From: a virus
Virus record (IMG/VR): IMGVR_UViG_3300035698_009139
Length of the DNA: 64,000 nucleotides
Reading direction: 5' to 3' (one strand)
Shown here: piece by piece, positions 5,832 through 63,005 of the stretch
Position numbering within the stretch: the stretch's first letter is position 1
How the letters are laid out: every line of letters begins with the position of its first letter
Position numbers and translations under genes: made by a program
The notes under the pieces: generated by a model
Told to the model about the DNA's origin: nothing
Seen by the model: the letters and a program-made list of their open reading frames with translations, nothing else
Database searches by the model: none

Positions 5832-6278
5832 ATGAGCGACACATACGACGAACAAATTGAGGCGCTGCTGAGCGGCGATGTTTCGACCTACTATAAATTG
5901 GTCGGCGATTATTATCGGCGATACGACCGATACGACCTCGAAAGACCGCCGACATTCCACTTCACTGCTTGGAATGTCGGCGGCGATTACCCGGATAGCA
6001 TTTTCTCGAAGATTGGGGAGACTGGGCGATGCGCTTCCCAGATCGAGTACTCGCGGCGATGGTGGGGTGCCGGCAAGATAGATGCAGCTGGCGCGAAAAT
6101 CAAGGCCGCCGTGATGAAAGGATCGACCGTATCTCTGCCGCGATTGGCAAATCCGTTTCTCCTCCGAAAGACCGTTTTCACCCGAGAGCAGCTGGAAGAG
6201 TTCGCCCGGCGGCAACGCGCGGCGGCCGCATATGCAGAAGAACTCGAATCACTGAAGGAGTTTACCGCAGATGTTTAA
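5832..6278 (+). CDS. Hypothetical protein, tandem paralog family A (1/3)
   Basis: DTYDEQI...WN...CAS.IE...FTREQLEEFARRQR shared with the next two genes. Confidence 0.85.
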   Translation: MSDTYDEQIEALLSGDVSTYYKLVGDYYRRYDRYDLERPPTFHFTAWNVGGDYPDSIFSKIGETGRCASQIEYSRRWWGAGKIDAAGAKIKAAVMKGSTVSLPRLANPFLLRKTVFTREQLEEFARRQRAAAAYAEELESLKEFTADV

Positions 6279-6786
6279 TACACCGAGCGCCGACACATAC
6301 GACACATACGACGAACAAATCGATGCGATTATGTCCAGCGACAAGCTTGCCTACTGGGAGCTGATAACCGAAGACTGGATCGATGCGGCCGACCATACGC
6401 GCGAGTCTGGTACCTCACATTACGAGATGTGGAACAGCAGTGGGGCCCACAAATCCAGCCTATTTGCATTCCTTCCGCAAGGGTGTGTCGGCGGGCAGTG
6501 TGCTAGCACAATCGAGCACATGTACTCGGGCGAGATCGAGGAGGAAGGCTCTACTGCAATCAAGGATATCAGAGATGCTATAATGCTGGGCAGCACCCCT
6601 CTGCCGGACATGCAAAGCAATCGGTTTCAGACGCCGGATGGGGATTCGGGTTTTGACTCTGCTGCGCAGCTGATGGCCGATACCATCCGGCGGCAAGATC
6701 AACGCCACGACTTCAAATTCACCCTCGGTGAGCTGAAAGAGTTTGCTCGCCGGCAACGCATAGCAAGGATCGAATACAATGCCTGA
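6271..6786 (+). CDS. Hypothetical protein, family A (2/3)
   Basis: Same motifs. Confidence 0.85.
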   Translation: MFNTPSADTYDTYDEQIDAIMSSDKLAYWELITEDWIDAADHTRESGTSHYEMWNSSGAHKSSLFAFLPQGCVGGQCASTIEHMYSGEIEEEGSTAIKDIRDAIMLGSTPLPDMQSNRFQTPDGDSGFDSAAQLMADTIRRQDQRHDFKFTLGELKEFARRQRIARIEYNA

Positions 6787-13222: not shown

Positions 13223-13251
13223 AGTATACCACTAATCCACATAAGATTCAA
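13223..13251 (-). promoter_or_regulatory. Sigma70 promoter flanked by a TTGAATC/GATTCAA inverted repeat
   Basis: TTGAAT-17-TATACT on the minus strand. Confidence 0.7.
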
Positions 13252-13709
13252 TTAGATTTATGGGACACAATTTTGATGTGGGGTGCGTATTGAGCTACGT
13301 GTTTGCCTATCTTGCGTTTTTCTTCGCGCGTGTGGTCACTAGACAGAGACAAATGTGTAACATGCTTCAAAGGTATAGGTCCTTTGACGGATTCTTCTGA
13401 TTCGTGGCGCCGCAGACTAGTATCCCGTTCATTATCGTCGTGGCGGGCGGGAGAATTCTTATGAGACCCTCCCATGTACCAATCAGTGGGTTGAATTTTT
13501 GAGTGATGTTTCAGTTTGTCGTGATCGATTTTCCAATGAACTTTACTCCATCCTTTGGCATAATGCTCGCTGCGAGAAACACTGACATGGCCATTTTCAG
13601 AGGGATCAATCTTGCCTGCTTTCAGAGTGTCATGCACATTATCAGTGTGGGTTGCGTGGTACAGAGGAGCTCTACTCTGCTCGGCGATGAATGTCTTGAA
13701 TCTTTGCAT
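13248..13709 (-). CDS. Putative capsid-packaged ADP-ribosyltransferase-fold protein
   Basis: N-term MQRFKTFIAE (T4 capsid-targeting-like); LYHAT, VSVS, ESE motifs; late promoter and AAGGAG RBS. Confidence 0.6.
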   Translation of the reverse strand: MQRFKTFIAEQSRAPLYHATHTDNVHDTLKAGKIDPSENGHVSVSRSEHYAKGWSKVHWKIDHDKLKHHSKIQPTDWYMGGSHKNSPARHDDNERDTSLRRHESEESVKGPIPLKHVTHLSLSSDHTREEKRKIGKHVAQYAPHIKIVSHKSN

Positions 13710-13728: not shown

Positions 13729-13755
13729 TATTTATATAGACAGCATTTATAAATA
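13729..13755. promoter_or_regulatory. Divergent pair of T4-type late promoters
   Basis: TATAAATA on minus (13729-13736) and plus (13748-13755). Confidence 0.8.
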
Positions 13756-29069: not shown

Positions 29070-29094
29070 TGATAAATACCGTACGGAGGAATTA

Positions 29095-46750: not shown

Positions 46751-46758
46751 TATAAATA
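46751..46758 (+). promoter_or_regulatory. Late promoter
   Basis: TATAAATA. Confidence 0.8.
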
Positions 46759-46775
46759 AAGTAATGGAGGTTATT

Positions 46776-46979
46776 ATGACAAATGAACGTACAGCACAGG
46801 CGATTGAAGCACTAAACGCGGGTAATACGACAGAATTTGCCGACGCAGTGACAAATGATTTGATGGACCGAGTTGCGGCCGCAGTTGAATCCCAAAAGCA
46901 AGACGTTGCAGCATCAATGTTTAGTACAGGCGCGCAAGAAAACAACGATGGAGAAACGTCGGATGGCGAAGACATTTAA
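46776..46979 (+). CDS. gp67: Prohead core protein (gp67-like)
   Basis: Small acidic protein, K..VA.SMF motif, position before gp21; GGAGG RBS. Confidence 0.65.
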   Translation: MTNERTAQAIEALNAGNTTEFADAVTNDLMDRVAAAVESQKQDVAASMFSTGAQENNDGETSDGEDI

Positions 46980-47607
46980 TACATTATTCGAAAAGTATGG
47001 TTCTGATAACAGCTATAGCGTTCCGGCCGATGATGACCGAGAGGCTAAAGATATCAAGCCGCGTTCGAAAGGCGAGGAGAAATTCGTCGCTAAACATACA
47101 ACCAAAGTTACCAAACATCCAGTAGCCAAGGACAACCAGTTCAAGTCTACCAATAAGCCAAGTCTGCATAAAGGTTTCGAATCTAAGCATGCTGGTGAAA
47201 TGAAAGCTCCAAAACAGGGTACTTCAGAAGCTGGCAACAATGGTGATGGTGGAAATAAACAGACTCCTTCCCGCCGCGGTGATCAGATGGGTGGAGAGAC
47301 TAGCACAGTCAAGGCTGGCAGCTCAGACGTCCGTGTGGAGAATGTAACCGCACTACAGGATGAACGCAATGCTCTCCAGGAACGGATCGATGAGATTGAG
47401 CAGCTTTTGGACGAGAGCTATGAAACCAATATCGATTTAGAAGATGGCAACACAGCATTTCTTACGAAAGCTGACGCCAGAAATATTGACGAGGTTCGTG
47501 GTCGGCTAACAGATTTCAACAAAAAGCAGTTCAACGAACGGCTTCAGAAAGACGAAGCATCATTCAAACACGTACTTAGCTTCGTACGAGATCAAGTAAG
47601 GGACTAA
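46963..47607 (+). CDS. Prohead core / internal protein
   Basis: MAKTFNTLFE N-terminus, charged; shares motifs with gp22. Confidence 0.6.
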   Translation: MAKTFNTLFEKYGSDNSYSVPADDDREAKDIKPRSKGEEKFVAKHTTKVTKHPVAKDNQFKSTNKPSLHKGFESKHAGEMKAPKQGTSEAGNNGDGGNKQTPSRRGDQMGGETSTVKAGSSDVRVENVTALQDERNALQERIDEIEQLLDESYETNIDLEDGNTAFLTKADARNIDEVRGRLTDFNKKQFNERLQKDEASFKHVLSFVRDQVRD

Positions 47608-47610
47608 TAG

Positions 47611-47958
47611 ATGACAGTTGTCAATAAAGCCAAAGGCGGACAAGTCACGCTTCGTTTCGAAACGACGGGCTTTGCTAACCTAGGCCAGGTTAATGCTATC
47701 GGTGAAACTGTTACCAGTATGAGAATTACTGATGTACTTTGGTCGGCTAACGGTGGCGCCTGGTTGATTAAACGCGGAGCCAACACAGTTCTCAAATTGA
47801 ATGGCAACGGTATCTGGCCTCTAAGGGACAACAACATTGTAGTTGATAATGTTGGCGGTGAATCAGCTGCTAACATCCAATGCATTCTAACAGCCGGGTC
47901 TGGTTCTCTTGTTATTAAGTTGGCCAAAGACTCAACAACATTTACGAGGCAGTACTAA
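47611..47958 (+). CDS. Conserved small virion protein upstream of the prohead protease
   Basis: I..V.WS, G.G.W motifs; TAATG coupling. Confidence 0.7.
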   Translation: MTVVNKAKGGQVTLRFETTGFANLGQVNAIGETVTSMRITDVLWSANGGAWLIKRGANTVLKLNGNGIWPLRDNNIVVDNVGGESAANIQCILTAGSGSLVIKLAKDSTTFTRQY

Positions 47959-48614
47959 TGAAACTGATATGTGAAGTAGCTGACGACCAGGCATTGCAGT
48001 TTCTTGAAGAAGCTGATGCATCTGGTGGCAAGAAACTGTACATCCAGGGCCCGTTCCTACAGGCAGAGCAGCCTAATAAGAACCACCGACAGTATCGCAT
48101 CGAGACGCTGCAGCGTGAAGTAAAACGCTACAATGAAAATTACGTGCAGAAGAATCGTGCATACGGAGAGCTTGGGCATCCACAGGGCCCAACGATCAAC
48201 TTGGATCGTGTTTCACATATGATTGTCAAGCTCGAGCAGAGCGGCAACGACTTCATTGGTAAAGCTAAGATCACAGATACGCCATCTGGTAACATCGTAA
48301 AGGCTCTTATGGGTGAAGGTGCTTCATTGGGCGTCAGCTCACGTGGGATGGGATCACTGAAAGACATCGGCAGCGGCCTTTCAGAGGTCCAGGACGATTA
48401 TTATTTGGCCACACCAGCAGACATCGTGGCCGATCCATCAGCTCCAGACGCATTTGTCCAGGGTATTATGGAAAACAAAGAGTGGACGTGCGTTGAAGGA
48501 ATCTGGATGGAACAGCACCTTGATGCGGCTAAAAAGTTTATAAATAACACGCCGGCTCCAGAACTAAATGCAGCCAAAATCAAAGTATTTGAGGCCTTTA
48601 TCCAATCTCTATAG
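47958..48614 (+). CDS. gp21: Prohead core protease
   Basis: GELGHP, GVSSRG.GS, DIVADPSAPDAFV. Confidence 0.97.
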   Translation: MKLICEVADDQALQFLEEADASGGKKLYIQGPFLQAEQPNKNHRQYRIETLQREVKRYNENYVQKNRAYGELGHPQGPTINLDRVSHMIVKLEQSGNDFIGKAKITDTPSGNIVKALMGEGASLGVSSRGMGSLKDIGSGLSEVQDDYYLATPADIVADPSAPDAFVQGIMENKEWTCVEGIWMEQHLDAAKKFINNTPAPELNAAKIKVFEAFIQSL

Positions 48615-48636
48615 GATAGCCTGAAACAACTAGATA

Positions 48637-48644
48637 TATAAATA
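48637..48644 (+). promoter_or_regulatory. Late promoter
   Basis: TATAAATA. Confidence 0.8.
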
Positions 48645-48679
48645 GTAACAAGAAATTTATAATTCGTAAGGAGATACCG

Positions 48680-49789
48680 ATGGCCGTAAAGACACAGGTT
48701 GTAGAAGACCAGGAAATCGAAAATGCAGTCGATCAGCTGGATGAATTCAAGGCCGATGGTGAAGCTTCATCAGTAGCCGAGCCTGTAGCAGGTCAGACTC
48801 CAACACGTCGTGCAGATCAGCGTAAGGGCGAAACAGCTCCTATCATGCAGGGTACTTCTAAAGTATCCAAAGCAGCAATGCTTAAGCAGATGGTTGAAAA
48901 GCTTTCACAGCTTAAAGATACAGATCTGAAAGCCGCATACAAAGGCGTGATGAATACTTCGAAGCAGGAAAATCCTGGTGAGAAGCCAATCGCCCAGGGT
49001 ACGACAGACATCAAGCAGCCACCTCGCGTAACCAAAGAAGACCTAGACATCGCTTCTGATCTAGCAGCAATCTTCGCCGGCGACGAGACGCTTTCAGCAG
49101 AATTCAAAACTCAGGCAACTGAAGTATTCGAAACTGCAGTGGTATCAAAAATCAATGAGCACCTAGAAGACATCTTCGAGACAGCAGAAACAAGCGTCGA
49201 GACAATGACGGAATCTGCTAAAGAAGAATTGTCAACGAAATTGGACAGCTATCTTGACTACGTAGTCGAGCAGTGGATGGACGATAACAAGTTGGCAGTT
49301 GATCGCGGCATCCGCGCCGAGATCGTTGAAAACTTCATGGGTGGCCTACGCAACCTATTCGTAGAGCATTATGTAGACATCCCAGAAGACAAGGTAGACG
49401 TCGTAGATGACCTTGTTGTCCGTGTTGAAGAGCTTGAGTCGGCTCTTAGTGAGCAGATTGACGTGAACGTCACATTGGTCGCTGAAAACGAAGACCTTGC
49501 ACGTTCGCGAGTTCTTTCTCAGGTGACTGAGGGCTTGACGGAAACTCAGGCAGAAAAGATTACTTACCTGAGTGAAGCAGTAACATTCGATTCGTCTAAT
49601 GATTTCCAGACGGCTGTCGAGGGACTGAAAGAGAGTTATTTTGCAGGCGGCACAGTACGAACAATCGTTGAAGAAGACGACATCGACGGCCCAGTAGGCC
49701 TTGCCGAAGCAGCACCAGAGGGTTCCGCTCAAATGAAACCTTATATTGATGCCATCACACGCTCACTTGGCGCGCCCGCAAAAAAATAA
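48680..49789 (+). CDS. gp22: Prohead scaffold protein
   Basis: LS.EFK..A...FE.AV, D.YLDYVVE.W, F.EHY.D.P. Confidence 0.95.
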   Translation: MAVKTQVVEDQEIENAVDQLDEFKADGEASSVAEPVAGQTPTRRADQRKGETAPIMQGTSKVSKAAMLKQMVEKLSQLKDTDLKAAYKGVMNTSKQENPGEKPIAQGTTDIKQPPRVTKEDLDIASDLAAIFAGDETLSAEFKTQATEVFETAVVSKINEHLEDIFETAETSVETMTESAKEELSTKLDSYLDYVVEQWMDDNKLAVDRGIRAEIVENFMGGLRNLFVEHYVDIPEDKVDVVDDLVVRVEELESALSEQIDVNVTLVAENEDLARSRVLSQVTEGLTETQAEKITYLSEAVTFDSSNDFQTAVEGLKESYFAGGTVRTIVEEDDIDGPVGLAEAAPEGSAQMKPYIDAITRSLGAPAKK

Positions 49790-54690: not shown

Positions 54691-55263
54691 ATGAAGATGA
54701 AAAAGATTAAAAAGAAGCCGATTAATTATATTGACAAACCAGTATTCCTAGAAGCGATGCGCCAGCATAAGGAAAAGGTCAAGCAATATGAAATAGATAG
54801 AGTTGAAAACCCCGACCTGCTTGCACCGATGGTTTCAAATTACATTGGCGATTGTCTGTTGAAGATAGCAAAAGGTATCTCGTCGCGGCCCAACTTCTCC
54901 AGATATCCGTTCAGGGAAGAAATGGAAGGCGACGGAATTCAGAACTGTCTGCAGTATATAAACAACTTTGATCCAGCGCTGTCCAATAACCCGTTCGGTT
55001 ATTTTTCCAAGATCATATGGTTCGCCTTCCTTCGCAGAATCGAAAAAGAGCATACCAACCTATACACCAAGTATAAGATGATTCAGAACAATACAGCCCA
55101 GGTGGTCGACGGGGTCGATGGTGCAATCGAGTTGGGTATGATGTCCGATCACTCTGAATACTCGCAGGATTATATGTCTGAGTTTATTATCAACTACGAG
55201 CGAAAAAGAGATGAGAAAAGGGCCAAGACTAAGCTGGCTGCACAAAAGAAAAATGCTGTATAA
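54691..55263 (+). CDS. gp55: Late-transcription sigma factor
   Basis: YIG.C.LKIA, PNF..Y..REEM..DG, NPF.YF..I...AF.RRI.KE. Confidence 0.95.
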   Translation: MKMKKIKKKPINYIDKPVFLEAMRQHKEKVKQYEIDRVENPDLLAPMVSNYIGDCLLKIAKGISSRPNFSRYPFREEMEGDGIQNCLQYINNFDPALSNNPFGYFSKIIWFAFLRRIEKEHTNLYTKYKMIQNNTAQVVDGVDGAIELGMMSDHSEYSQDYMSEFIINYERKRDEKRAKTKLAAQKKNAV

Positions 55264-58081: not shown

Positions 58082-58580
58082 GCTATTGAAATCGGCCGAT
58101 CCGCGCCTGCGGCAAGAGACTAAGCCGTATGTGTTCCACGACCACTCTGATGTGCAGGCGCAGCAGATTGTTGATGCTCTTACGGAAGTCATGCGATCTA
58201 GTGGTGGGGTGGGGTTATCAGCGAATCAAATTGGAATGAAGTGGCGGGTGTTTATTATCAAAGTCGGTGATGAAATCGTGCCAATTTTTAATCCGAAACT
58301 CGTTGACACCTTCGGCGAAAACGTGTATTATGATGAAGGTTGTCTATCCTTCCCAAACCTGTTTATGAAAGTCAAACGCTTCCAAGGATTGCGTCTACGC
58401 TTTGCATCACAGAACGGTGAAGTTGATACGAAGAAATTCACAGGGATGACAGCGCGGATCATGCTGCATGAGATCGATCATTTGGACGGTGTAGTGTTTA
58501 CGGACCGGGCTAATCGTATGCAGCGTGAGCGTGGGATGAAAAAGAAGAAGCAACTAGATAGGCGAGCAAAGGCAGCATGA
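58074..58580 (+). CDS. def: Peptide deformylase
   Basis: GVGLSANQIG, EGCLS, HEIDHLDG. Confidence 0.95.
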   Translation: MLELLKSADPRLRQETKPYVFHDHSDVQAQQIVDALTEVMRSSGGVGLSANQIGMKWRVFIIKVGDEIVPIFNPKLVDTFGENVYYDEGCLSFPNLFMKVKRFQGLRLRFASQNGEVDTKKFTGMTARIMLHEIDHLDGVVFTDRANRMQRERGMKKKKQLDRRAKAA

Positions 58581-59035
58581 AATATGTATCAACAAAAACC
58601 TATAAAGACTTGGGTCCAGTGGCATATCGTCAATGGCGAGCTGAAAGTCACTGTAGGCACATTCACGGGTATTCGTTGTCATTCCACTTCGAGTTCACAG
58701 CAGATACCTTGGATGCACGAAACTGGGTTATGGACTTCGGCGGGCTCGGACCACTGAAGGATAATCTAGAAGACTGGTTCGACCATACGATGTTGGTGGC
58801 TGTTGATGACCCTGAGCGAGAAACTTTGTTAGCGCTTGCTGCAAAGGATTTGATCAAGGTAACGGAAGTGGAAAAGACCGGCTGTGAGGGGCTGGCAACA
58901 TTTCTATATGAATACATCAACACGATCTTTCTGAAAAATTACGGCGAGCAGGATCGCATCTGGTGCACTAAAGTAGAAGTGCGCGAGACTGAAAAGAACA
59001 TGGCGTATGTGACCGGGTATAGAGACATTGAGTAG
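58577..59035 (+). CDS. queD: 6-carboxy-5,6,7,8-tetrahydropterin synthase
   Basis: C..IHGY, DFG, FDH, GCE, V.E. Confidence 0.9.
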   Translation: MKYVSTKTYKDLGPVAYRQWRAESHCRHIHGYSLSFHFEFTADTLDARNWVMDFGGLGPLKDNLEDWFDHTMLVAVDDPERETLLALAAKDLIKVTEVEKTGCEGLATFLYEYINTIFLKNYGEQDRIWCTKVEVRETEKNMAYVTGYRDIE

Positions 59036-59417
59036 TATCAAGAACGACACTATGAGTGACCTCGCCGCCATAATTTGTAGAGAGATACAAATCGAAATCG
59101 ATAAAGAAATAACAGAATTACTTGCTTCTTCTGCAATAACTGGAGTGACAAAAGAACTGCCGGCCGCACCAACCGGTGATATGTTAGCTATACATAGATT
59201 CATCGGTTGGAAAGAAGACGGTCGCCAAGTGTATGGTGTTCGAGGAATGGGTCCCACTTACAAGAAATTCTACAATGAGTGGTATAACTCTACTCGAGTA
59301 GTGTGGTGCAGAGATGATTTTCCTTGGGACTACAACACTTTCACCAAACTCAGCGAAGCCGATCTAATAGATCAATGGGGCACCTATATTGAAGACATAG
59401 AGGAGGATACTGAATGA
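59028..59417 (+). CDS. Hypothetical protein with an N-terminal helix resembling a gp23 segment
   Basis: LAAIICREIQIEIDKEI vs gp23 LANILSAEILAEINREV. Confidence 0.6.
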   Translation: MSSIKNDTMSDLAAIICREIQIEIDKEITELLASSAITGVTKELPAAPTGDMLAIHRFIGWKEDGRQVYGVRGMGPTYKKFYNEWYNSTRVVWCRDDFPWDYNTFTKLSEADLIDQWGTYIEDIEEDTE

Positions 59418-60325
59418 TAGATAAAGAACACTTATACAGCGAAATCTTCTACTCGATTCAGGGTGAAGGCAAATACACTGGAGTTCCTACAGCTTGGCTG
59501 AGGTATTTCTCGTGTAACCTACAGTGTAATGGATTCGGTCAAGACTTTCCAACCAATCCATCAACACATGAGTTGCCTTACAAGGATATCAACCCGGCCG
59601 ATTACGATACGATGGAGGAATTGCCGGTGTTCGATAAGGGCTGCGATAGCTCGTATTCGTGGGCGTCCAAGTTCAAGTGCCTGCAACACAGCGACACTGC
59701 TGATGTGATTGTGGATAAGATTGCAGAAGCAGTTAGCACGGAAAGCAATCCAGAAGGGCTTTTCCACCACCCGAAAACACTGCAGCCAATTCATATGTGT
59801 TTCACAGGCGGAGAGCCAATGCTGAAAAACGCACAGCTTGCATCAGTTGAGATACTGAAACGTATGAGGGGCACATGTAATATTCCATCATCGATCACAT
59901 TTGAGACCAATGGCACTCAGCCGCTGACGGAAGAATTTACCAATCTGTTTGAAAACAAAGGGATGTTCTCAGGCGAACTATTCTTCTCAGTCAGCCCCAA
60001 ACTATATAACGTGTCTGGTGAAAAGCCAGAAAAGGCTATTAAGCCAGATGTTGTTAGACAGTATCAATATTTGTCAGGTGTCAAGAACGGCCAGCTGAAG
60101 TTCGTTGTGCGCGACAAACCCGAGGTCTGGGATGAGTTAGAAAAAGTGATCGAGCAGTTCAGATACGCCGGCGTGCAGTATCCTGTGTGGATCATGCCGG
60201 TTGGTGCTACAGTAGAAGAGCAAGAATCTTCGGCTGGCGATGTAGCAGAGAAGGCCTTCAAAAAAGGCTATAACGTAAGTTCCAGAGTGCATTGCTATCT
60301 CTGGGGAAACAAGATAGGAGTCTGA
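59414..60325 (+). CDS. queE: 7-carboxy-7-deazaguanine synthase (radical SAM)
   Basis: EIFYSIQGEG, CNLQC..GCDS, TGGEP, ETNG, SVSPK. Confidence 0.93.
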   Translation: MIDKEHLYSEIFYSIQGEGKYTGVPTAWLRYFSCNLQCNGFGQDFPTNPSTHELPYKDINPADYDTMEELPVFDKGCDSSYSWASKFKCLQHSDTADVIVDKIAEAVSTESNPEGLFHHPKTLQPIHMCFTGGEPMLKNAQLASVEILKRMRGTCNIPSSITFETNGTQPLTEEFTNLFENKGMFSGELFFSVSPKLYNVSGEKPEKAIKPDVVRQYQYLSGVKNGQLKFVVRDKPEVWDELEKVIEQFRYAGVQYPVWIMPVGATVEEQESSAGDVAEKAFKKGYNVSSRVHCYLWGNKIGV

Positions 60326-60329
60326 GAAA

Positions 60330-61256
60330 TTGGGTATTGACTATTCTGGTAAAATGCCAGACTTGAAATTTGAATATGATGAAGCCCACGTTCCTGATCT
60401 GGAGAATCTACCTGACCCACAAGTAGACCCAATCATTCCTGGTGCACGTGTACCGATTCGTAAAGTCGGTATAGCGCCAGTTGATCTACCAATCATGGTT
60501 AAACGTCGTGATGGTACAACACAACAACTCCAAGCTCAGGCATCGTTGTACTGCTCATTGGACGATCCCGAAGCGAAGGGATTGAATCTATCACGCCTAT
60601 ATCTGATCATGCACGAAACGATCAAAGACCATTTGACGATCGAGGGATTGTCTGGCGCACTGAAACAATTGGCTGAAAAGCAGCACAGTAAGCATGCGTA
60701 CTGCAAGCTTCGGTTCAAGTATCCTTGGACGCAAGAGGCTTTACGTACTAAGGGCCTGCGTGGCCACATCGCATACGAGTGTGAAGTAGAAGCACAGCTG
60801 CATGACGGCGAGTATCGATTCTTTTTGACAGTTGATTACGTATACAGTAGCACATGTCCTTGTAGTTTCGAGTTAGCACATGATGCTACTTCGAAGCGCA
60901 ATGCAGCAGCGAATGCGCATTCCCAACGCAGCCACCTCAAGACCAAGATTGAATTCAGCTTGGACAATATTGTGTGGATCGAGGATCTGGTTGATCTATG
61001 TCGCCTGCATATTCCCACGGAGGTTCAAATCGTAGTTAAGCGAGCTGATGAGCAGGCGTTTGCAGAATTGAATGGAGCTAACCTTTTATTCAGTGAAGAC
61101 GTATGTCGTCTGATGTATGCAGCATTAGATAATTGGTTCGATGCTGGTGTGATCAGTGATTTCAGCATTGTTGTGTCACATGAGGAAAGCCTGCATCCTT
61201 GGAACGCTGTGGCTGTTACCAGCAAGTATAGTAATGATATGGGAGCACTGATGTGA
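60330..61256 (+). CDS. folE2: GTP cyclohydrolase type IB
   Basis: STCPCS, AHSQRS, VKR.DE, F.ED, ES.H. Confidence 0.9.
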   Translation: MGIDYSGKMPDLKFEYDEAHVPDLENLPDPQVDPIIPGARVPIRKVGIAPVDLPIMVKRRDGTTQQLQAQASLYCSLDDPEAKGLNLSRLYLIMHETIKDHLTIEGLSGALKQLAEKQHSKHAYCKLRFKYPWTQEALRTKGLRGHIAYECEVEAQLHDGEYRFFLTVDYVYSSTCPCSFELAHDATSKRNAAANAHSQRSHLKTKIEFSLDNIVWIEDLVDLCRLHIPTEVQIVVKRADEQAFAELNGANLLFSEDVCRLMYAALDNWFDAGVISDFSIVVSHEESLHPWNAVAVTSKYSNDMGALM

Positions 61257-62017
61257 TTAGTCGAGATGCAAAACGGGTATTGGCTGGTAAGATTTGGCAT
61301 GCTATGTATCCCAACAAGAACTTTTTTGACAACGAGAGTGGCATGTGGTCCGCTGGTGACAAAGAGCGAAGGATGTTTGCGTTGATCGATGAAATTGAAC
61401 CAGTGATGCGAGATCTATTCGGCCCATCGGCGGCCGAGAAAGCCTCAGATTTTCCTACTAATTCAATTGGGTCGATACCAAACATGGCTCCTACCCCACC
61501 ACCTATGGTAATCCTGGGCCCTATAGATACATCTAATGTGCAGCGTCACGACAATATAACAACAGCGGCCGTTCCACCAACAAACAACATGAAAGCTGTT
61601 TGGGTGACGTTTCAGAAAGAAGGCATGCACTGCTATCCGGATGCTGAGTATCTACCAGGCGTCGAGTTCCTATCATATCCACACCGCCACATCTTCAAGT
61701 TTAAGGTATGGATCCAGGTGTTCGATGACGATCGGGACATTGAGTTCATCCTATTTAAGCGAGAACTGGAAGCGCTGTATACTGGCTCTGTGCTCGAGTT
61801 AGATCACAAGTCTTGTGAGATGATTTCTGATGATCTTGCGGGGTATATTAAAGATAAATACGTGGGTCGCCACTTGCAGATTGAAGTCAGCGAGGATGGC
61901 GAGAACGGTAGTACATGCACATATGGAGTGACAAATGCAGAATTACAAGAGTTTCATCGCCGAGGAAGACAAAAAGCACATGACCCGATGGATCCAAAAA
62001 CAGGTTCATCAGACTGA
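61253..62017 (+). CDS. dpdL: QueD-like T-fold protein, probable CDG decarboxylase, with N-terminal extension (core from ~61589)
   Basis: LSYPHRHIF (LxxxHRHxF), DR..EFI, SCE, EDGENG; located in the deazaguanine cluster. Confidence 0.65.
   Translation: MISRDAKRVLAGKIWHAMYPNKNFFDNESGMWSAGDKERRMFALIDEIEPVMRDLFGPSAAEKASDFPTNSIGSIPNMAPTPPPMVILGPIDTSNVQRHDNITTAAVPPTNNMKAVWVTFQKEGMHCYPDAEYLPGVEFLSYPHRHIFKFKVWIQVFDDDRDIEFILFKRELEALYTGSVLELDHKSCEMISDDLAGYIKDKYVGRHLQIEVSEDGENGSTCTYGVTNAELQEFHRRGRQKAHDPMDPKTGSSD
61853..61860 (+). promoter_or_regulatory. Late-promoter variant inside the dpdL-like gene
   Basis: GATAAATA, the same variant as the intergenic one at ~29071; 75 nt upstream of the hidden ORF. 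Confidence 0.45.
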
Positions 62018-62114
62018 GCGTCCCCACGACGAAATCCGTACCGAATTTAAAAAGAAGTACGGCGATAAGCACCTGACACATTTTGACAGTACGGTGCAAC
62101 ACGAAGTCGGCTAA
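61935..62114 (+). CDS. 59-aa putative internal head protein (not in ORF track)
   Basis: GGAG RBS; MQNYKSFIAE capsid-targeting-like N-terminus; fills the gap before the dpdA-like gene. Confidence 0.7.
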   Translation: MQNYKSFIAEEDKKHMTRWIQKQVHQTERPHDEIRTEFKKKYGDKHLTHFDSTVQHEVG

Positions 62115-62135
62115 CATTTGAAAGGCCTTTTTATT

Positions 62136-63005
62136 ATGATTAATTTTTGCCACATTTCACCACCGAAGTTTCAAATCGATTGCGAATGGATTATGCCCAA
62201 CCAGTTGATGCTAGCCCACTTGCTGGAAGATGAGCACGGTGATTACGCCACATTGCATAATGGTATATCGGCACGGAATGCTGGTCTACGCATCATGGAC
62301 AACAGCGCGTTTGAGATGTTCATGGAGGACCGGCCGATGTTCAGTGAGAGCAAGTTGCTTGAACTCGGCCGCCGCTGCAAAGCAGAATACCTCGTGATGA
62401 CGGATTACCCACTAGAGCCGTCGATCAAGACAATAAATGTAGCATGCAATCAGGGCCCCCAATTCCACGAGGCCGGGTTCAAAACATTCTTCGTACCCCA
62501 ATCAGAGCTCGGAGATCTTGAGGATTTTATTACAGCGTTTGCATTCGGCTGTGTGTCTCCCCACGTTGATATGATTGGTGTCAGTATTCTTGCAGCTCCC
62601 CACGCATTAGGGATTGATGCCAAGAACAAGGGGCCCAACAGATACTTATCCAGAACGGTGTTAATGCAAAAACTCAGAAGTAGAGGACTGCTGGATCTTG
62701 CTGCCAACAATGGCAAAAAGATCCATATGCTCGGGATGACGGATGGCCCAAGAGAAATTCAATTGATGCACAATGCTCGTCTCACTGGTGGTATATACAG
62801 TTGGGATTCTAGCGCGGCGGTTTGGGCAGGGATGAATGGGATTGTATTCGATGATTCCCCGACCGGGCTAATCAATGGTAAATTTGAAACACCAGTTGAT
62901 TTTGGGTATAGCGATGAAATATCTGAGGCCGCCCGCAACATGGCTATGCACAATTGCAGAGTGATGCGTCGATATTGTGAAGGAAAGTTTAACGATGGCG
63001 AATGA
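62136..63005 (+). CDS. dpdA: TGT-fold DNA-guanine transglycosylase (DpdA family)
   Basis: MDNSAFE, HMLG and SWDSS motifs of TGT-like barrels; cluster context. Confidence 0.65.
   Translation: MINFCHISPPKFQIDCEWIMPNQLMLAHLLEDEHGDYATLHNGISARNAGLRIMDNSAFEMFMEDRPMFSESKLLELGRRCKAEYLVMTDYPLEPSIKTINVACNQGPQFHEAGFKTFFVPQSELGDLEDFITAFAFGCVSPHVDMIGVSILAAPHALGIDAKNKGPNRYLSRTVLMQKLRSRGLLDLAANNGKKIHMLGMTDGPREIQLMHNARLTGGIYSWDSSAAVWAGMNGIVFDDSPTGLINGKFETPVDFGYSDEISEAARNMAMHNCRVMRRYCEGKFNDGE

What the first reader, a model, noticed from the sequence alone, without database searches (positions are those of the whole stretch)
61853..62114. Hidden capsid-targeted mini-protein nested in the DNA-modification cluster (possible IPI-like guard of modified DNA)
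Seen: a 59-aa ORF (61935-62114; MQNYKSFIAE-EDKKHMTRWIQKQVHQTERPHDEIRTEFKKKYGDKHLTHFDSTVQHEVG) below the ORF-track cutoff. It overlaps the dpdL-like tail, has a GGAG RBS and has a GATAAATA late-promoter variant 75 nt upstream. Known: T4 internal proteins carry a ~10-aa capsid-targeting sequence (MKTYQEFIAE type) cleaved by gp21 after Glu, and T4 IPI* is injected to block the modification-dependent nuclease GmrSD. Inference: a late-made, packaged, co-injected peptide placed between dpdL and dpdA may protect 7-deazaguanine DNA against a modification-dependent defence, forming a 'modify plus co-inject inhibitor' module.
Basis: partly seen in the sequence, partly recalled or inferred. Interest (0 to 1): 0.85.

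Follow-up and report, generated by a model that had tools for sequence, protein, structure and literature searches.

The report
Capsid-targeted mini-protein beside DNA-modification gene
A real, conserved 59-residue phage gene carries the same N-terminal tag that phage T4 uses to load proteins into its head, and it almost always sits just before the enzyme that puts 7-deazaguanine into the phage DNA; what it does after injection is still untested.

Summary
ORF 61935-62114 exists, with a GGAG ribosome-binding site, an 83-nt overlap with the DpdL gene tail, and GATAAATA 75 nt upstream.

It is a genuine gene of a previously unnamed family: about 20 metagenomic members, plus Vibrio phage D479 and Rhizobium phage RHph_I1_18.

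Every member has three parts:
- a T4-type capsid-targeting leader, M-[KQ]-x-[FY]-x-x-[FY]-[ILMV]-x-E
- a linker of 0-35 residues
- a 45-residue three-helix core (W..Q.E.TDRPHDEI..F..KYG..FDK.V)

The window ORF matches T4's MKTYQEFIAE at all four positions shown experimentally to matter (4, 7, 8, 10). The same leader heads unrelated proteins here and in D479 and T4. The window also encodes a gp21-type protease, a gp22 scaffold and the gp55 late sigma factor.

In 12 of 13 contexts the gene lies directly upstream of a DpdA3-type transglycosylase. In 8 of 13 a NATAAATA late promoter (mostly GATAAATA) lies within 100 nt upstream.

Most likely it is a late-made, head-packaged, gp21-cleaved internal protein (49-residue, 6 kDa mature form). 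The proposed IPI-like role guarding deazaguanine DNA is plausible but untested. The family is absent from several DpdL/DpdA3 phages, so it is not needed for the modification itself.

The parts
61935..62114 (+). 59-aa small gene (stop included): CTS-like leader plus three-helix core, member of a new small-protein family
   Evidence: profile hit E 6e-26, the only copy in the window
61935..61964 (+). Leader MQNYKSFIAE. It matches the T4 CTS MKTYQEFIAE at residues 4 (Y), 7 (F), 8 (I) and 10 (E). Predicted gp21-type cleavage after Glu10 (I-A-E|E).
61965..62111 (+). Predicted mature 49-aa peptide (6.04 kDa, pI 8.4); three helices, conserved core W..Q.H.TERPHDEI..F..KYG..FD..V
61924..61927 (+). GGAG ribosome-binding site, 7 nt before the ATG
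61853..61860 (+). GATAAATA, a T4-type late-promoter variant that lies inside the DpdL coding sequence. The same motif lies 19-44 nt upstream of the homologous gene in L004, L011, L020, L001, L034 and L035; L008 has TATAAATA.
61253..62017 (+). 254-aa ORF. Residues about 113-224 are DpdL (phrog_17812, signature LSYPHRHIF). It has an N-terminal extension and a non-conserved 27-aa tail that overlaps the small gene.
62118..63005 (+). DpdA3-type DNA transglycosylase. The likely true start is the ATG at 62136 (MINFCHISP). It lies 21 nt after the small gene with no terminator between them.
   Evidence: (hhalign to phiST CGPG_00065, probability 97%, E 9e-11)
47958..48614 (+). gp21-type prohead maturation protease, the enzyme expected to remove the leader
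   Evidence: phrog_207, E 1e-75
48680..49789 (+). gp22-type scaffolding core protein, the expected docking partner of a CTS
   Evidence: phrog_237, E 1e-75
54691..55263 (+). gp55-type late sigma factor, which reads TATAAATA-type promoters
   Evidence: phrog_234, E 1e-46
13248..13709 (-). Second gene in the window with the same leader (MQRFKTFIAE), 153 aa and unrelated cargo. A perfect TATAAATA (13736-13729) and an AAAGGAG site lie just upstream. The predicted fold resembles ADP-ribosyltransferases.
46964..47607 (+). Head-module ORF just upstream of the protease. It starts MAKTFNTLFE (leader-like) after a GGAG.

Best explanation
The ORF encodes a member of a previously unnamed family of small proteins in distant T4-like phages. 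I read it as a head internal protein.

Proposed mechanism:
- It is transcribed late, from a GATAAATA-type gp55 promoter that probably also serves the downstream dpdA3.
- Its 10-residue N-terminal capsid-targeting sequence docks it onto the gp22 scaffolding core of the prohead.
- The gp21-type protease cuts after Glu10.
- The 49-residue three-helix peptide stays in the head and leaves with the DNA at infection.

Shown here: the gene is real and conserved. It has a modular leader/linker/core build. The leader is identical to T4's CTS at the four functionally mapped positions and also occurs on unrelated cargo proteins. The protease, scaffold and late sigma factor are in the same window. A late-promoter motif recurs upstream. 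The gene is almost invariably placed directly 5' of dpdA3.

Inferred, not shown: packaging, cleavage, ejection, and what the peptide does in the cell. By analogy with T4 IPI and IPIII it most likely acts early against a host defence.
For: Gene reality and build
- Homologues. The alignment shows a conserved leader, a 0-35-aa variable linker and a conserved core.
- AF2 predicts a three-helix bundle at pLDDT 81, with the leader at low confidence.

Leader
- T4 CTS = MKTYQEFIAE (PMC8442874).
- In T4, targeting depends on residues 4 and 7, and processing on residues 8 and 10 (PMC9026906). The window ORF has Y4, F7, I8 and E10.
- The leader DNA pattern gives 2 hits in the window against 0.02 expected.
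- In T4 the pattern gives 3 hits: ipII, ipIII and gp61.1.
- In D479 it gives 3 hits on unrelated ORFs.
- Further leader-bearing neighbours occur in L013, L021 and L001, and in the window's head module.

Machinery in the window
- gp21, gp22 and gp23; gp55.

Late promoters
- TATAAATA occurs 9 times on the + strand against 1.8 expected, placed before head and tail genes.
- NATAAATA lies within 100 nt upstream of the family gene in 6 of 10 contexts (binomial tail 2e-8) and in 2 of 3 further contexts.

Synteny
-.
Against: - There are no virion proteomic or transcript data for any member.
- The promoter motif in the window is 75 nt upstream and inside the DpdL coding sequence. Five of 13 contexts have no such motif within 100 nt.
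- Some members deviate in the leader: P0004 INEE, D479 FSES, and P0021/22 have the Glu at residue 13.
- D479 has a weak second copy of the core without a leader.
- The cores are not uniformly basic as T4 IPs are (pI 5.6-9.8).
- The leader could in principle be a conserved first-helix extension; AF2 draws one continuous helix over residues 4-26.
Confidence: 0.6

Rival explanations
1. It is a packaged internal protein, but its position next to dpdA3 is only historical. Both genes sit in a plastic region of T4-like genomes (between gp46 and the clamp loader) and share a late promoter. On this reading the peptide's function has nothing to do with 7-deazaguanine DNA.
For: - Most contexts share the same backbone order gp46-PDF-QueD...DCD-clamp loader, so they are not independent.
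- Other leader-bearing ORFs of unrelated sequence also accumulate in this region.
- One member (P0011, L008) lies far from any dpd gene, after a tRNA and with its own TATAAATA.
Against: In Vibrio phage D479 the DpdL-small-DpdA3 trio lies in a different genomic neighbourhood, from RNA ligase to topoisomerase. This suggests the three genes travel as a block. Adjacency held in 12 of 13 contexts despite insertions of homing endonucleases around it.
Confidence: 0.3
2. It is not packaged. It is a cytoplasmic accessory or regulatory partner of DpdA3 (or DpdL), made with DpdA3 from one transcript and needed for efficient base exchange. The N-terminal motif is just family sequence.
For: - The gene is tightly adjacent to dpdA3, with no terminator between them.
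- The authors who named DpdL and DpdA3 could not reconstitute dDG formation in E. coli. They noted that other unknown proteins may be required (PMC10516641).
- D479 has a leaderless copy of the core.
Against: - A profile search finds no family member in Cellulophaga phage phiST, Acidovorax phage ACP17, Aeromonas phage Ahp1, Vibrio phage Bakedbeans or Synechococcus phage BUCT-ZZ01, all of which carry DpdL homologues. For Ahp1 and Bakedbeans a DpdA3-type gene of the window's own subfamily was matched and for phiST DpdA3 is CGPG_00065; the transglycosylase genes of ACP17 and BUCT-ZZ01 were not examined here. phiST is reported to be fully modified.
- The same leader heads unrelated proteins.
- The variable linker separates the leader from the core.
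Confidence: 0.1
3. It is not a gene. It is either a chance ORF in the alternative frame of the DpdL tail, or a frameshifted C-terminus of DpdL.
For: The ORF overlaps the upstream ORF by 83 nt and is short.
Against: - Homologues exist as separate genes, with intergenic spacers after DpdL.
- DpdL homologues end before the overlap.
- The profile E-value is 6e-26.
Confidence: 0.02

Closest known systems
[quoted passage not shown]
   Same: - A 10-residue N-terminal leader of the same form, identical at the mapped positions 4, 7, 8 and 10.
- Small size and a late-promoter motif.
- The genome encodes gp21, gp22 and gp55 homologues.
- The leader is shared among unrelated cargo proteins in one genome.
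   Different: - No sequence similarity of the mature part to any T4 protein.
- No fold match to a known inhibitor.
- The cores are not consistently basic.
- Unlike the fast-changing T-even IPs, this core is conserved across many divergent phages and is fixed next to one gene, dpdA3.
- The function is untested.
T4 gp61.1 (54-aa hypothetical protein, MKTFKEFIKE...)
   Same: A tiny ORF with a CTS-like leader that lies among DNA-metabolism genes rather than in the head module.
   Different: The cargo sequence is unrelated and low-complexity. I saw no evidence on its packaging either.
Phage 7-deazaguanine DNA modification clusters (FolE-QueD-QueE-DpdL-DpdA3; Hutinet et al. 2023, PMC10516641)
   Same: The small gene lies inside such a cluster. 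The neighbours carry the DpdL signature LxxxHRHxF and match DpdA3 of phiST.
   Different: The published clusters list no such small gene. The phiST gene in the equivalent position (CGPG_00066) was reported to have no homologues in other deazaguanine phages, and the family profile finds no match anywhere in the phiST genome.

Membership tests
T4-type CTS-tagged head internal proteins | N-terminal leader of about 10 aa with the targeting determinants at residues 4 and 7 (aromatic in T4: Y4, F7) | tested here: met
   The window ORF has Y4 and F7. By hand count from the sequences, about 13 of 18 family members have [FY]4 and [FYH]7 once extra N-terminal residues are allowed for. The rule is taken from PMC9026906.
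T4-type CTS-tagged head internal proteins | gp21 processing determinants: aliphatic residue at 8 and Glu at 10, the (I/L)-x-E cleavage site | tested here: met
   The window has I8-A9-E10. The family consensus is [ILMV]-x-E. A few members deviate: P0004, D479, P0021/22.
T4-type CTS-tagged head internal proteins | The same genome encodes a gp21-type prohead protease and a gp22-type scaffolding core | tested here: met
   phrog_207 and phrog_237, each at E about 1e-75, at 47958-49789
T4-type CTS-tagged head internal proteins | The leader is portable: the same leader sits on unrelated cargo proteins in one genome | tested here: met
   Window 13709-13248(-) starts MQRFKTFIAE and window 46964-47607 starts MAKTFNTLFE. 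D479 has at least 4 further ORFs of this kind.
T4-type CTS-tagged head internal proteins | Late (gp55-dependent) expression | tested here: inconclusive
   A motif is present (GATAAATA at -75) and recurs in 8 of 13 contexts. There are no transcript data, and the motif in the window lies inside a coding region.
T4-type CTS-tagged head internal proteins | The processed protein is physically present in the virion and is ejected with the DNA | not testable with these tools
   Needs virion mass spectrometry or N-terminal sequencing
T4 IPI/IPII/IPIII (homology of the mature part) | Sequence similarity of the mature protein to a T4 IP | tested here: not met
   The family profile finds nothing in the T4 genome at E<=1. 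Only the leader is shared.
IPI*-like inhibitor of modification-dependent (type IV) nucleases | Binds and blocks a type IV restriction enzyme | not testable with these tools
   No host or nuclease is known. Fold searches gave only generic helical matches.
DpdA3 (neighbouring gene 62118-63005) | Homology to the DpdA3 prototype, phiST CGPG_00065 | tested here: met
   hhalign probability 97%, E 9e-11, 247 aligned columns. tblastn also hits the annotated DNA guanine transglycosylase of Flavobacterium phage immuto.
DpdL (neighbouring ORF 61253-62017) | T-fold QueD paralogue with the signature LxxxHRHxF in place of CxxxHGH | tested here: met
   LSYPHRHIF is present. phrog_17812 matches at E 6e-33. 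There are hits to the DpdL genes of ACP17 and phiST. The signature is taken from PMC10516641.

The most novel reading that the evidence does not exclude
The small protein is the injected half of a two-part 'modify and guard' module. DpdL and DpdA3 replace G with 7-deazaguanine. The co-inherited, head-packaged peptide enters with the DNA and neutralises a host factor that recognises deazaguanine DNA, such as a type IV nuclease or a glycosylase. This would be the deazapurine counterpart of T4's glucosyl-hmC plus IPI*.
Probability: 0.2. Interest if true: 0.8.

Novelty: new member of a known kind. Interest (0 to 1): 0.6.

Why it matters
- The family shows that the T4 capsid-targeting leader is conserved in form far outside the T-even phages, in Rhizobium, Vibrio and many uncultured T4-like phages. 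A simple pattern can therefore predict packaged, injected proteins in such genomes.
- This family is unusual among such cargo. It is conserved and fixed beside the DpdA3 transglycosylase, which gives a concrete candidate for a counter-defence tied to 7-deazaguanine DNA. No defence that targets deazaguanine DNA, and no phage answer to one, came up in what I read.
- It is easy to test, because the peptide is short and cultured phages carry it (RHph_I1_18, D479).
- It also flags a gene missing from published deazaguanine cluster maps.

Tried and rejected
Searches that found nothing
- Megablast of the region against GenBank phages: no match.
- The first word-indexed protein search with the single sequence: nothing.
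- The search for related loci in IMG/VR with DpdA3: nothing.
- Pfam, PHROGs and NCBIfam on the small protein: no family. One sub-threshold NCBIfam hit (RmtC, E 0.04) was ignored.
- tblastn with three family members against GenBank phages: only RHph_I1_18.
- No paper in the library holds both 'capsid targeting' and 'deazaguanine'.

Fold searches with the AF2 model
- Foldseek against PDB: no hit at E<=0.001.
- Foldseek against BFVD: the top hit (E 0.034) is a 274-aa protein, probably the Rhizobium phage homologue.
- VIA-align wide: best Z 7.3, generic helical matches.
- The ESM Atlas feature search scored 0.78.

Other checks
- Complex prediction of DpdA3 with the small protein returned 'no answer' (score 0.00). 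This is no evidence either way.
- A profile search of PDB sequences with the DpdA3 alignment found no TGT. The DpdA3 assignment rests on hhalign to phiST instead.
- The whole genome is not held, so leaders outside the 64-kb window could not be counted.

Readings rejected
- A frameshift fusion with DpdL: homologues are separate genes.
- The 'Appr-1-p processing' annotation of the long Rhizobium form: Pfam gives no macro domain.

Full report
**Observation**

The 59-codon ORF at 61935-62114 (+) reads MQNYKSFIAEEDKKHMTRWIQKQVHQTERPHDEIRTEFKKKYGDKHLTHFDSTVQHEVG. It is preceded by GGAG (61924-61927) and by GATAAATA at 61853-61860. It overlaps by 83 nt the 254-aa ORF 61253-62017.

**Setting**

The window comes from a distant T4-like phage.
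- It encodes a gp21-type prohead protease (47958-48614), a gp22 scaffold and a gp23 capsid protein. The capsid protein's best GenBank match is 66% identical, in Stenotrophomonas phage DLP6.
- It also encodes UvsY, a helicase, the gp55 late sigma factor, gp47/gp46 and a peptide deformylase.
- These are followed by QueD, QueE and FolE2.
- The 254-aa ORF carries phrog_17812 in residues 113-224 and the DpdL signature LxxxHRHxF (LSYPHRHIF). It hits the DpdL genes of Acidovorax phage ACP17 and Cellulophaga phage phiST.
- The 295-aa protein downstream is a DpdA3-type transglycosylase. hhalign to phiST CGPG_00065 gives probability 97% and E 9e-11.
- No QueC is present in the window. This is the gene set for which 2'-deoxy-7-deazaguanine DNA was proposed (PMC10516641).

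**The ORF is a real gene**
- phmmer against 1.84 billion cluster representatives found nine proteins, with a best E of 5.8e-6 and 42% identity over the full length.
- A profile of these hits found 17 small and 3 longer proteins at E 1e-10 to 4e-24.
- Profile searches of whole phage records found the family in Rhizobium phage RHph_I1_18 (E 1e-22) and Vibrio phage D479 (E 5e-11), as detailed below.
- In RHph_I1_18 it forms the C-terminus of a 274-aa protein. In D479 it is a 67-aa gene.
- Homologues of the upstream DpdL ORF end at window residue 224-231. In relatives the small gene follows DpdL after a spacer. So the overlap is a non-conserved run-on of DpdL, not an argument against the small gene.

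**Architecture**

The 21-sequence alignment shows three parts.
- An N-terminal leader, M-[KQ]-x-[FY]-x-x-[FY]-[ILMV]-x-E.
- A linker that varies from 0 to about 35 residues.
- A 45-residue core: W..Q.E.TDRPHDEI..F..KYG..FDK.V.E.VD.

AlphaFold2 on the alignment gives a three-helix bundle with mean pLDDT 81. The first ten residues score 62. The variable linker shows that the leader is a separate module.

**The leader is a T4-type capsid-targeting sequence in form**

The T4 CTS is MKTYQEFIAE (PMC8442874). In T4, suppressor analysis placed the targeting determinants at residues 4 and 7 and the processing determinants at residues 8 and 10 (PMC9026906). The window ORF has Y4, F7, I8 and E10, identical at all four positions. 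Most family members keep them.

The leader also occurs on unrelated cargo.
- Written as a DNA pattern, it hits the window twice against 0.02 expected.
- The second hit is a 153-aa ORF at 13709-13248 (-), MQRFKTFIAE... It has a perfect TATAAATA and an AAAGGAG site just upstream. The Atlas model for it resembles DarT/PARP/Arr-type ADP-ribosyltransferases, which is a lead only. T4 packages the ADP-ribosyltransferase Alt in its head.
- A head-module ORF just before the protease starts MAKTFNTLFE.
- As a control, the pattern hits T4 three times with no reversed-pattern hits: ipII, ipIII and the 54-aa gp61.1.
- In D479 it hits three unrelated ORFs, and others with MKTFEQF... lie nearby.
- In L013 and L021 a second, unrelated leader-bearing ORF lies immediately upstream of the family gene. 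In RHph_I1_18 the next gene starts MAKTYKEFIAEAR.

**Late promoter**
- TATAAATA occurs nine times on the + strand against 1.8 expected. The sites lie 20-45 nt before head and tail genes.
- Variants such as GATAAATA sit in the same position before other late genes, for example at 29071.
- For the family gene, NATAAATA lies within 100 nt upstream in 6 of 10 contexts, where the background chance is 0.022 per context (binomial tail 2e-8). It is also there in 2 of 3 further contexts. Seven of the eight sites are GATAAATA.
- The window's site is the most distant one (75 nt) and lies inside the DpdL coding sequence.
- No terminator separates the small gene from dpdA3. The promoter may therefore serve both genes.

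**Linkage to the modification genes**
- In 12 of 13 distinct contexts the family gene lies directly 5' of a DpdA3-type gene, or one to two genes away in L009 and RHph_I1_18. All these downstream genes match the DpdA3 profile at E 1e-96 or better.
- The contexts are the window, L004, L011, L013, L020, L021, L033, L034, L035, L009, D479, RHph_I1_18 and L008 (the one exception, below).
- A gene with the DpdL motif is usually upstream.
- Most contexts share one backbone, so they are not independent. D479 carries the trio DpdL-small-DpdA3 in a different neighbourhood.
- The exception is P0011 in L008, which follows a tRNA with no dpd gene within 6 kb.
- The family is absent from phiST, ACP17, Ahp1, Bakedbeans and BUCT-ZZ01, which all carry DpdL homologues. 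A DpdA3-type gene was matched here in Ahp1 and Bakedbeans, and phiST's DpdA3 is CGPG_00065; I did not look for one in ACP17 or BUCT-ZZ01. So it is dispensable for at least those phages' modification chemistry.
- Ahp1 has a different leader-bearing 70-aa ORF in its cluster.

**Mechanism**

I commit to this reading: a late-made protein, loaded into the prohead core by its CTS, cut after Glu10 by the gp21-type protease, kept as a 49-residue 6.0-kDa peptide (pI 8.4) and ejected with the DNA.
- Shown: the sequence features, the machinery, the promoter motif and the synteny.
- Inferred: packaging, cleavage and ejection.
- Open: the function after entry. By analogy with IPI (which acts against GmrSD) and IPIII (needed on ECOR17; PMC9391042), an early counter-defence role is most likely.
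- The specific idea that it guards deazaguanine DNA rests only on gene order. I give it about 0.2.
- The core's conserved residues are mostly buried hydrophobics and a helix-capping PHDEI. The net charge varies (pI 5.6-9.8). Fold and family searches give nothing specific.

**Comparison and novelty**

It works like a T4 internal protein, but its mature part is not homologous to any T4 internal protein. CTS-tagged cargo is a known kind. This family, its conservation across divergent phages and its fixed place beside dpdA3 appear undescribed: no paper in the library combines the two topics, and the cluster maps of PMC10516641 do not list it. Earlier notes of this scan on the same genome made the same reading of this stretch and of the pathway. 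They are not independent evidence.

Noticed in passing
window 13248-13709 (-), promoter at 13729-13736 (-): A 153-aa ORF starts MQRFKTFIAE, the same leader as the small gene, with a perfect TATAAATA and an AAAGGAG site just upstream. The ESM Atlas model resembles ADP-ribosyltransferases of the DarT/PARP/Arr type (TM about 0.7). It is a candidate packaged enzyme, like T4 Alt. It has no Pfam, PHROG or GenBank-phage match.
   Followed up: partly
window 46964-47607 (+): A head-module ORF just upstream of the prohead protease probably starts at MAKTFNTLFE (GGAG 9 nt before), which is a leader-like N-terminus. A 71-aa ORF (46764-46979) precedes it, after the TATAAATA at 46751. They sit where T4 has gp67/gp68.
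   Followed up: partly
L026:267-431 (-) = T4 NC_000866 18966-19130: T4 gp61.1 is a 54-aa hypothetical protein next to the primase gene. It starts MKTFKEFIKE, a CTS-like leader, and the leader pattern picks it up along with ipII and ipIII.
   Followed up: partly
L015:1501-1773, L017:1501-1815, L017 877-1473 (-), L019:1036-1530 (-), L002:1429-2109: Vibrio phage D479 has at least five further unrelated ORFs that begin MKTF..F..E or MKSF... This suggests a large set of leader-tagged cargo proteins.
   Followed up: partly
L013:3409-3696 and L021:4726-5001: A second small family (91-95 aa; MKTFEMFVEE / MKSFQLFVEE, then KGDK.SRR...) with the same leader lies immediately upstream of the family gene. 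These phages therefore have two tagged genes in a row before dpdA3.
   Followed up: no
L001:5145-5969 and 5969-6376 (Rhizobium phage RHph_I1_18): The 274-aa protein annotated 'Appr-1-p processing enzyme' has no macro domain by Pfam, and its C-terminus is the family core. The next gene (EVB91_071) starts MAKTYKEFIAEAR, almost the T4 IPII N-terminus.
   Followed up: partly
L003:2813-3025 (Aeromonas phage Ahp1, AHP1_641): A 70-aa ORF with the leader MKTFDEYLAE sits inside that phage's deazaguanine cluster, just before FolE. It is not homologous to the family core.
   Followed up: no
window 61253-61590: The DpdL ORF has an N-terminal extension of about 110 aa with no match in the shorter (115-138 aa) DpdL homologues. 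It starts with a GTG that overlaps the end of folE2. It could be a fused domain or a separate upstream gene in the same frame.
   Followed up: no
window 58577-63005: QueD, QueE, FolE2, DpdL and DpdA3 are present and no QueC is seen in the window. This gene set is the one proposed to give 7-deazaguanine (dDG) DNA.
   Followed up: partly
L032:2207-2347 (-) (D479 76706-76846): A 46-aa ORF weakly matches the family core (E 1e-4) but has no leader. It may be a leaderless paralogue.
   Followed up: partly
L008 about 5900-5960: A tRNA 3' end (GGTTCGAATCC...CCA-like) lies just upstream of the TATAAATA that precedes family member P0011. This is the one context without dpd genes nearby.
   Followed up: no
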